Under the pieces are notes generated by a model. The model was given only the letters and a program-made list of their open reading frames with translations, was not told the DNA's origin and ran no database searches. A program made the position numbers and the translations under genes. From Octopus sinensis (Eukaryota), in NCBI RefSeq assembly GCF_006345805.1, contig NC_042998.1, positions 188,604,001-188,668,000 on the forward strand: a stretch of DNA of 64,000 nucleotides, given 5' to 3'. Position 1 is the stretch's first letter. Every line of letters begins with the position of its first letter. Below are positions 520-60,995 of this stretch, one piece after another.

Positions 520-1187
520 TACATACACACACACACACCACACGCCACACACGCATATATATATACTTCTTGCATACATTTAACTATTGTATCAATTTTT
601 TGATTAAGTATTGTATTCAGAATACTGAACCAATGAGCATTTTATCCTGTGGTTGCATCTGATAACTCTTTCGGAGTACCTATTCGCATGTTCATCTGTA
701 CATATTAAAATGCATAGTGCTTCCTCGGAACAGAGATAGTAAGATCTTATTTTCTGTCATTTATCTATTTAAATATCCTTTACGGATACTATAGAATTTT
801 TTATGTATACCAAGTAACCAATGAGTGAGGTGGAGCTTAATATAGCATTCTATATGGTTTACATCGTAAACCGCAGCCTAGTCCTAAGAGTGACTGTATT
901 TACTTACCACAGGATGGAATACCATGGATTATAAATACATAGGTACACATCCAGTAGTATGTTGGATATTCTAATATCCTTTAGATGGTTCCTTAATCTT
1001 TAACTCATACATACACACACACAACACACACACACACACCCACACACACCCAACACAACCACACATATATATATATATATAGTTATATATATATATATAT
1101 ATATAAACACTTGCAGCATGGAAGGTGTTTATAAGCCATTTAAGAAACACACAAAACTGTTAGATTCACTTCAACATTTAAATTTTA

Positions 1188-1237
1188 TTTGTCAAAATAT
1201 TTTCGTTGCTTTGAGACCGCGACTGTTCACTGACAAA
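1188..1237 (-). ncRNA. Minimal type I hammerhead-like motif, G3:C8 core variant (inverted copy)
   Basis: Reverse complement reads TTTGTCA-GTGAACA-GTCGC ggtctcaaa GCAAC-GAA-AATATT-T-TGACAAA. Confidence 0.6.
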
Positions 1238-1259
1238 GATTCGAGATGCAGCAAGAAAC

Positions 1260-1310
1260 TTTGTCAGTGAACAGGTCGCGGTCTCAAAGCAACGAAAATA
1301 TTTTGACAAA
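1260..1310 (+). ncRNA. Minimal type I hammerhead-like motif, G3:C8 core variant
   Basis: TTTGTCA-GTGAACA-G-GTCGC ggtctcaaa GCAAC-GAA-AATATT-T-TGACAAA; 7-bp stem I, palindromic stem III. Confidence 0.6.
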
Positions 1311-1466
1311 TTAAATTTAAATGTGAAGTGAATCTAACAGGTTTTGTATGTTTCTTAAATGGCTTATAAACACCTTCCACGCTGCAATTGTTTTTGTTCC
1401 AGCACACGATCTCAGATCAAGTCACTTGCTATGCAAGTACATCTCCGTAATATATATATATATATA

Positions 1467-60787: not shown

Positions 60788-60995
60788 GTTAATCCAAACA
60801 TGAAAACACAAAGAGAAAACACAACAACGCGAGGACGTGGAACAAATATAGTATTATTGGACGCTCAGGAAGGAAGGGAAGAAGGAGGGTTTTACGTTTC
60901 GAGCGGAGCTCTTCGTCAGAAACATAGGAAAAGGAAAGATCCAGAGAAGGGAAGACAGAGGGAAAAAAATCGCCAACGGTACACACGCGGTCACA
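60788..60995 (-). mobile_element. H1-related element next to (TA)n
   Basis: Minus strand shares TTCCTGAGCGT..AATAC and the HHR block with 48200-48415. Confidence 0.65.
60889..60923 (-). ncRNA. Minimal type I hammerhead ribozyme, canonical core
   Basis: GTTT-CTGACGA-A-GAGC tcc GCTC-GAA-ACGT-A-AAAC; palindromic stem III, GUA site. Confidence 0.75.

What the first reader, a model, noticed from the sequence alone, without database searches (positions are those of the whole stretch)
1111..1449. 277-bp palindrome holding two back-to-back hammerheads with a compensatory G3:C8 core swap
Seen: both arms read GUGAACA instead of CUGANGA, inside an otherwise good fold (7-bp stem I, AAUAUU palindromic stem III, one C-A mismatch in stem II). 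Known: positions 3 and 8 form a tertiary Watson-Crick pair in the active hammerhead, so a double change preserves it. Inference: a natural covariant ribozyme family that canonical searches would miss. The inverted structure would also give long dsRNA if transcribed.
Basis: partly seen in the sequence, partly recalled or inferred. Interest (0 to 1): 0.8.

Follow-up and report, generated by a model that had tools for sequence, protein, structure and literature searches.

The report
Retroelement hammerhead with flipped core pair
This palindrome is the leftover tail end of a Penelope-like jumping gene, pasted in once forwards and once backwards; its predicted self-cutting RNA motif has the key C3-G8 pair flipped to G3-C8 throughout a family of thousands of copies, while two sister families use C-G and U-A, which suggests the cutting geometry is likely still under selection.

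Summary
The palindrome (1105-1393, 92.5% arm identity) and both GUGAACA cores are real. The unit is the ~210-nt 3' end (pLTR) of an RT + GIY-YIG Penelope-like element: 24 of 30 ORF copies carry it about 1 kb downstream, one copy keeps a 1042-aa open frame, and at least 5,741 genomic matches exist. The inverted arm with a ~60-nt tail on one arm only (24 of 25 pairs) is the known Penelope insertion signature, so the two hammerheads are one motif on opposite strands; a transcript through the locus is predicted to fold into a plain hairpin. G3-C8 is fixed in the family (79 of 100 listed copies exact; no C3-G8 sublineage). Sister families in the same genome have C3-G8 and U3-A8 at the homologous site, with compensatory changes in stems I-III; a metagenome relative is canonical. 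Natural U3-A8 is published and an engineered C3G/G8C partly rescues a Penelope hammerhead; I found no natural G3-C8 in print, but could not read Lunse 2017. Cleavage is untested: copies do not start at the cut site, and one sister family fixed A9C. Verdict: new variant of a known kind.

The parts
1105..1242 (-). Inverted, tail-less copy of the pLTR unit (left arm)
   Evidence: shares the minority stem II allele with the right arm, so both arms likely came from one template in one insertion
1188..1237 (-). Minimal type-I hammerhead motif, left arm: G3 at 1230, C8 at 1225; has lost the extra G between A9 and G10.1
1243..1393 (+). Sense copy of the pLTR unit, from the family's usual 5' boundary (G-AGATGC at 1243-1249) to the short 3' end
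1260..1310 (+). Minimal type-I hammerhead motif, right arm: stem I 1260-1266/1304-1310, G3 1267, C8 1272, A9 1273, extra G 1274, stem II 1275-1279/1289-1293, G12-A14 1294-1296, palindromic stem III 1297-1302, U17 1303 (predicted cut after 1303)
1394..1450 (+). About 60-nt 'tail', on one arm only: the Penelope-like insertion signature
   Evidence: 24 of 25 distinct inverted pairs have it on exactly one arm, none on both; signature described in PMC8557442
1065..1104 (.). (TA)n target, left flank; the right flank from about 1451 is also (TA)n, so no target-site duplication can be read here

Best explanation
The feature is a 5'-truncated insertion of a recently active RT + GIY-YIG Penelope-like element, made of one sense pLTR with its tail and one inverted tail-less pLTR, and its minimal hammerhead carries a family-wide G3-C8 swap that likely keeps the motif able to cleave slowly as a dimer or with protein help. 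Shown: the family link, the insertion anatomy, the fixed G3-C8, and the three different Watson-Crick pairs at 3:8 in three related families. Inferred: the element's protein copies its RNA into (TA)n targets and a template switch makes the inverted arm. Also inferred: purifying selection on the active-site pair acted in the master copies, and two same-sense motifs would pair through AAUAUU to build stem III and cut after U17. This particular copy is probably inert, because a transcript through it would fold into one long hairpin.
For: Partner element: L159 shows inverted arm with tail, then RT-thumb-GIY-YIG ORF, about 1 kb microsatellite-rich 3' UTR, then the motif; Pfam GIY-YIG above cut-off. 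24 of 30 best ORF copies have the unit on the same strand about 1 kb downstream; one copy has a 1042-aa open frame. Anatomy: adjacent inverted arm in 28 of 40 copies picked by position (13 of 25 after removing 15 copies of one composite repeat). Tail on exactly one arm in 24 of 25 pairs; 13 of 49 insertions show clear 9-13 bp duplications. Core fixed: 79 of the first 100 of 1,586 matches read GTGAACA with the core left open (hand count). Only 181 matches lack G3, and none of the 100 listed has C3+G8. No other letter reaches 3% at 1267-1276 in 4 runs labelled as 4 organisms. Subfamilies change loop II but keep core and stem II. Covariation: sister family B has C3-G8 (89 of 100 listed of 2,345), family C has U3-A8 (78 of 100 listed of 1,314), metagenome relative L211 is canonical; stems I, II and III change on both sides. 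A, B and C are each 100/100 clades. Literature: extra nucleotide between 9 and 10.1, palindromic stem III, natural U3-A8 and low dimer-dependent activity (PMC4209133); an engineered C3G/G8C partly restores a Penelope-like hammerhead (PMC11167929).
Against: No cleavage, strand or expression data: only contigs of runs guessed to be RNA were available. Copies do not begin at the cut site: 1 of 30 copies anchored on the 3' part starts within 2 nt of it, and 2 of 109 arms fall in the 55-66 bin, none exactly at it (that sample is biased towards intact 5' ends). So the RNA that gets copied is uncleaved. Sister family B has fixed A9C, an uncompensated core change, yet reached over 2,300 copies, so core integrity may be dispensable. 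The AAUAUU duplex alone is barely stable (-0.2 kcal/mol) and the predicted dimer minimum does not form stem III. The extra base is G, where the published consensus is H. The tree does not resolve the root among A, B+C and the two metagenome rows, so the ancestral state rests on L211, L222 and the published consensus.
Confidence: 0.78

Rival explanations
1. Same Penelope-like origin, but the G3-C8 motif is no longer catalytic. It survives as a folded protein-binding or RT-positioning signal, or as a recently dead relic carried by a successful master copy.
For: No 5' ends at the cut site; A9C fixed in an active sister family; hammerhead mutants did not affect insertion in vitro and no reads ended at the cut site for the Anolis element (PMC11167929); Naiads thrive without canonical hammerheads (PMC8557442).
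Against: The only core positions changed in families A and C are 3 and 8, and both changes restore Watson-Crick pairing. That pair has a known role in the cleavage-active fold. A rough neutral estimate is about 1 in 230 per lineage (1 of 78 position pairs among 13 core bases, times 1 in 3; my arithmetic, no call).
Confidence: 0.17
2. The palindrome itself is the functional unit: a foldback or MITE-like element, or a selected dsRNA and small-RNA source with two paired ribozymes.
For: A near-perfect 289-nt hairpin is predicted (-198.6 kcal/mol); inverted pairs are common in the family.
Against: Inverted arms are truncated at many different points, the tail is on one arm only, many copies are single, and the unit is the 3' end of an RT-encoding element. 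Opposite-strand motifs cannot pair as a hammerhead dimer in one transcript.
Confidence: 0.04
3. The hammerhead reading is a chance match within an AT-rich repeat.
For: No Rfam hammerhead among the listed matches; two further GTGAACA words in the window have no such context.
Against: 8 of 20,000 shuffles; a homologous motif with covarying stems lies at the same place in three related lineages.
Confidence: 0.01

Closest known systems
Minimal type-I hammerheads (min-HHR) in the pLTRs of metazoan Penelope-like elements (Cervera and de la Pena 2014, PMC4209133)
   Same: Position in the pLTR of an RT + GIY-YIG element; extra nucleotide between 9 and 10.1; G10.1-C11.1; palindromic stem III; U17; mostly solo truncated copies; pairs on opposite strands (against 27, 44, 95).
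   Different: G3-C8 instead of C3-G8. None of the rows I saw in their Figure S3 alignment has G3 (and passages). Extra base G (their consensus H), and a 7-bp stem I, longer than most.
Natural U3-A8 hammerheads (Perreault 2011, PMC3088659; Schistosoma Cercyon family in PMC4209133)
   Same: Natural covariation of the 3:8 tertiary pair; family C in this genome is itself U3-A8.
   Different: Here the swap is a double transversion that puts the purine at 3 and the pyrimidine at 8.
Engineered C3G/G8C double mutants (Frangieh 2024, PMC11167929, citing Martick and Scott 2006)
   Same: Identical core change; partial rescue of cleavage, shown in a Penelope-like hammerhead that needed the element's protein.
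   Different: Those are laboratory mutants; this is a genomic family of thousands of copies, not assayed.
C-terminal EN+ Penelope-like elements, Nematis-like by eye (Craig 2021, PMC8557442)
   Same: RT then GIY-YIG; short CxxC linker close to the GIY motif, as in the Nematis rows of their alignment; inverted truncated 5' copy, one-sided tail, (TA)n targets.
   Different: Tail about 60 nt rather than 30-40; about 1 kb microsatellite-rich 3' UTR. The clade was not tested with reference sequences.
Animal non-LTR retrozymes (Li, Clavereau and Pollet 2026, bioRxiv 10.64898/2026.07.22.740005)
   Same: Short non-coding hammerhead-bearing repeats related to pLTRs.
   Different: Retrozymes are head-to-tail arrays; these copies are solo or inverted and are simply the ends of the coding element.

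Membership tests
Penelope-like elements (EN+, canonical) | Single ORF with RT and C-terminal GIY-YIG endonuclease linked to the repeat | tested here: met
Penelope-like elements (EN+, canonical) | Inverted 5'-truncated copy next to a sense copy | tested here: met
   28 of 40; 13 of 25 without the composite repeat
Penelope-like elements (EN+, canonical) | Tail extension on one end only | tested here: met
   24 of 25 inverted pairs
Penelope-like elements (EN+, canonical) | Hammerhead motif in the pLTR near the 3' end | tested here: met
Penelope-like elements (EN+, canonical) | Direct tandem pLTR upstream of a full ORF | tested here: inconclusive
   The 1042-aa copy L191 has no upstream pLTR within the stretch held; L207 has a same-strand unit upstream of a partial ORF
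Nematis clade | Placement of the RT with Nematis references; reduced cysteine linker | tested here: inconclusive
   Linker spacing resembles the Nematis rows by eye; no tree with reference sequences was built
Hammerhead ribozyme (minimal type I) | Three-helix junction: stems I and II, palindromic stem III | tested here: met
   in the majority-type copy L166, predicted P(stem II) 0.995 and P(stem I) 0.84, but P(stem II) is 0.02 in the window's mismatched unit
Hammerhead ribozyme (minimal type I) | U4 G5 A6, A9, G12 A13 A14, A15.1-U16.1, H17 | tested here: met
Hammerhead ribozyme (minimal type I) | Literal C3 and G8 | tested here: not met
   G3 and C8 are fixed
Hammerhead ribozyme (minimal type I) | Watson-Crick pair between positions 3 and 8 | tested here: met
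   G-C, C-G and U-A in families A, B and C
Hammerhead ribozyme (minimal type I) | Site-specific self-cleavage after H17 | not testable with these tools
   No raw RNA reads; copy starts do not pile up at the site
Non-LTR retrozyme | Head-to-tail tandem units, each with a hammerhead | tested here: not met
   Copies are solo or inverted; the few same-strand neighbours examined repeat together with flanking DNA
MITE / foldback DNA transposon | Fixed terminal inverted repeats, symmetric ends | tested here: not met
   Variable arm length and one-sided tail

The most novel reading that the evidence does not exclude
The first natural, self-cleaving G3-C8 hammerhead. It belongs to a small retroelement clade in which three sister families in one animal genome have settled on three different Watson-Crick pairs (G-C, C-G, U-A) at the active-site 3:8 position. 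That is phylogenetic evidence that the slow Penelope hammerheads are kept for catalysis in vivo, and a sign that CUGANGA/CYGANGA censuses miss a whole layer of genomic ribozymes.
Probability: 0.42. Interest if true: 0.68.

Novelty: new variant of a known kind. Interest (0 to 1): 0.5.

Why it matters
Whether the minimal hammerheads of Penelope-like elements really cut RNA in vivo is open: they are slow, and mutants did not block insertion in vitro. The 3:8 pair has no place in the secondary structure and matters in the cleavage-active fold. Its flip, with the rest of the core intact, is therefore sequence evidence of selection on catalysis. The three sister families give ready natural wild types and swaps for a clean assay. 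Searches built on CUGANGA or CYGANGA would miss this family of at least 5,741 matches. The palindrome itself is ordinary.

Tried and rejected
Rfam scan: no hammerhead among the listed matches, only microsatellite-driven miRNA noise. The first Penelope-like RT found near a copy (L034; 781-aa family) is not the partner: none of its 30 loci carried the unit. Five same-strand or close pairs fetched as possible full elements were local duplications or a composite repeat, as was a ~4-kb array. MAFFT alignment of the four pLTRs was useless (one row on the wrong strand), so stems were read by structure from single copies (its last line, for family C, matched the wrong place and is ignored). Sequencing runs: no RNA holder listed on record; contigs only, so strand, cleavage ends, editing and splicing could not be read, and no splice joint was seen. 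Metagenome scan gave 2 relatives, 1 with a 3' UTR. Earlier scan findings: none by sequence, place or the specific words; 8 shown of 401 for 'hammerhead Penelope', none about a 3:8 swap. Papers not held: Lunse 2017, Przybilski and Hammann 2007 (52), Martick and Scott 2006 (76), Arkhipova 2017 (91); they or their supplements could hold a natural G3-C8. Searches that found no natural G3-C8. File 1 of the PMC4209133 supplement could not be searched.

Full report
Observation. Between two (TA)n runs sits an inverted repeat, 1105-1393, with arms 92.5% identical; the right arm continues to about 1450. Each arm holds, on its own strand, a 7-bp stem I, GTGAACA, a 5-bp stem II, GAA, AATATT and U17. A relaxed descriptor that accepts any Watson-Crick 3:8 pair hit 8 of 20,000 shuffles of the unit. 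Rfam listed no hammerhead (150 of 168 matches shown), but it also missed a canonical minimal hammerhead at 60919.

The family. The unit is a dispersed repeat. With the seven core bases left open there are 1,586 exact-flank matches, control 0; 79 of the first 100 read GTGAACA, 96 have G3, 94 have C8 and none has C3+G8 (hand count). A looser pattern gives 5,741 matches, control 1; subfamilies differ in loop II but keep the core and stem II. Only 181 matches lack G3, and the 100 listed are scattered changes with no C3-G8 sublineage. In contigs of 4 runs labelled as 4 organisms, no other letter reaches 3% at 1267-1276, while CpG sites in stem II show 3-16% transitions. G at 1291 is 92-95% of depth, so the C-A mismatch is a minority allele. 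Both arms here share that allele, which points to one template and one insertion. The left arm has also lost the family's extra G between A9 and G10.1.

What it belongs to. Copies have two 3' ends about 60 nt apart. An adjacent inverted arm of variable length is present in 28 of 40 copies chosen by position (13 of 25 after removing 15 copies of one composite repeat). Of 25 distinct inverted pairs, 24 have the tail on exactly one arm and none on both. Of 49 insertions the script flagged 19 duplications; 13 are clear 9-13 bp repeats and 6 are (TA)n-like. Craig 2021 describes this inverted-copy-plus-one-sided-tail pattern for Penelope-like elements (passages). Widely spaced inverted pairs led to the parent: L159 reads inverted arm with tail, RT-thumb-GIY-YIG ORF, about 1 kb of 3' UTR, then the motif (GIY-YIG above the Pfam cut-off). 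Of the 30 best ORF matches, 24 carry the unit on the same strand about 1 kb downstream, and one keeps a 1042-aa frame. Those copies are of a sister subfamily, about 89% identical to the window unit; units closer to the window's also follow more decayed ORFs (L202, L203, L223). No ORF remnant of these families lies in the window. The cysteine linker resembles Nematis by eye.

Covariation. Two related families in the same genome, with about 54% identity in the C-terminal part of the protein, have a homologous motif at the same place. Family B reads CTGATGC: C3-G8 but A9C (89 of 100 listed of 2,345; 3 have A9), and a diverged B-lineage copy has the full canonical core (L222). Family C reads TTGAAAA, U3-A8 (78 of 100 listed of 1,314). 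A metagenome relative, about 43% identical, reads CTGAAGA (L211). Across one natural copy each, stem II position 3 is C-G, C-G, U-A; position 4 is G-C, A-U, G-C; the inner pairs of stem I and the second pair of stem III also change on both sides. A, B and C are each supported 100/100, B+C 91/99, and the root is open (15 rows). These are three or four independent lineages, not thousands of data points.

Mechanism. Shown: origin, anatomy, fixed G3-C8, covariation. Inferred: the element's protein copies mostly short RNAs into (TA)n, and a template switch yields the inverted arm. In master copies two same-sense motifs would pair through AAUAUU and cut after U17, slowly. This fits PMC4209133, which reports the extra nucleotide, palindromic stem III, natural U3-A8, opposite-strand pairs 100-700 bp apart and weak dimer-only cleavage (parts 1-2 of 4 and part of supplement 2 read). 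It also fits PMC11167929, where G8C and C3G kill a Penelope-like hammerhead, the double partly rescues it, and protein is needed (passages). This locus is probably inert: in the full palindrome the motif's stems have predicted probabilities of 1e-27 or less, and stem II is 0.02 even in the isolated unit, against 0.995 in a majority-type copy.

Against. Nothing here shows cleavage. Only 1 of 30 copies anchored on the 3' part starts near the cut site, so the copied RNA is uncut. Family B thrives with A9C. The predicted dimer minimum does not form stem III. No run was on record as RNA.

Prior art. Natural U3-A8 is published (PMC3088659, passages). G3-C8 appeared only as a laboratory variant (PMC11167929; PMC3884650, passages). 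Searches found no natural case, and none of the alignment rows I saw in PMC4209133 has G3. PMC6765202, PMC13481778, PMC10085705 and PMC6155905 (passages) and the 2026 retrozyme preprint (part 1 of 5) added none. Lunse 2017, the most likely place for one, was not held, nor were three other relevant papers. That any Watson-Crick pair at 3:8 can support cleavage (Przybilski and Hammann 2007) is recalled, not read.

Verdict. Observation confirmed; reading partly supported. It is an ordinary Penelope-like inverted insertion carrying a probably unreported natural variant of a known ribozyme, with unusually clean three-way covariation among sister families. New variant of a known kind; interest 0.5.

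Noticed in passing
L192-L200, L217, L221 (family B), e.g. L217:2134-2140: An abundant sister Penelope-like family (2,345 matches) has fixed A9C in an otherwise canonical hammerhead core, with an imperfect stem III palindrome; an uncompensated core change in a successful family.
   Followed up: partly
L213, L215, L219, L220, L206 (family C): Third sister family with a U3-A8 minimal hammerhead and a 4-nt palindromic stem III, 1,314 matches.
   Followed up: partly
window 1243-1249; L125, L126, L131, L151, L158, L159: 5' ends of short copies pile up at AGATGC. In long copies this is preceded by a branch-point-like word, a pyrimidine run and YAG, like the intron end next to helix I in D. virilis Penelope. 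9 of 16 short arms have G just before it, against C or T in 6 of 6 long arms: a cap-derived G at a start site, or a very short first exon.
   Followed up: partly
window 60896-60926, minus strand: A canonical-core minimal hammerhead (CTGACGA, 4-bp stem II, palindromic ACGT) of another repeat family; a near-identical one in L037.
   Followed up: no
L034, L035, L066 and 14 other loci: One inverted insertion of this element, fixed inside a larger repeat, has been multiplied as a composite (15 of 40 sampled copies share one junction).
   Followed up: no
L156-L157 (G000:C1:72548000-72567800): Array with a period of about 3,990 bp, each unit holding several nested and inverted pieces of the element, no ORF match.
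   Followed up: partly
L036-L065, e.g. L053:664-3006: A different, very abundant Penelope-like family with 781-aa open frames (11,615 candidates); my descriptor found no hammerhead in the first few hundred bases held downstream, which contain short repeated units.
   Followed up: no
window 1247-1315, plus strand: ATG at the 5' boundary opens a short frame through the hammerhead that ends after about 22 codons in majority-type copies; no evidence that it is used.
   Followed up: no
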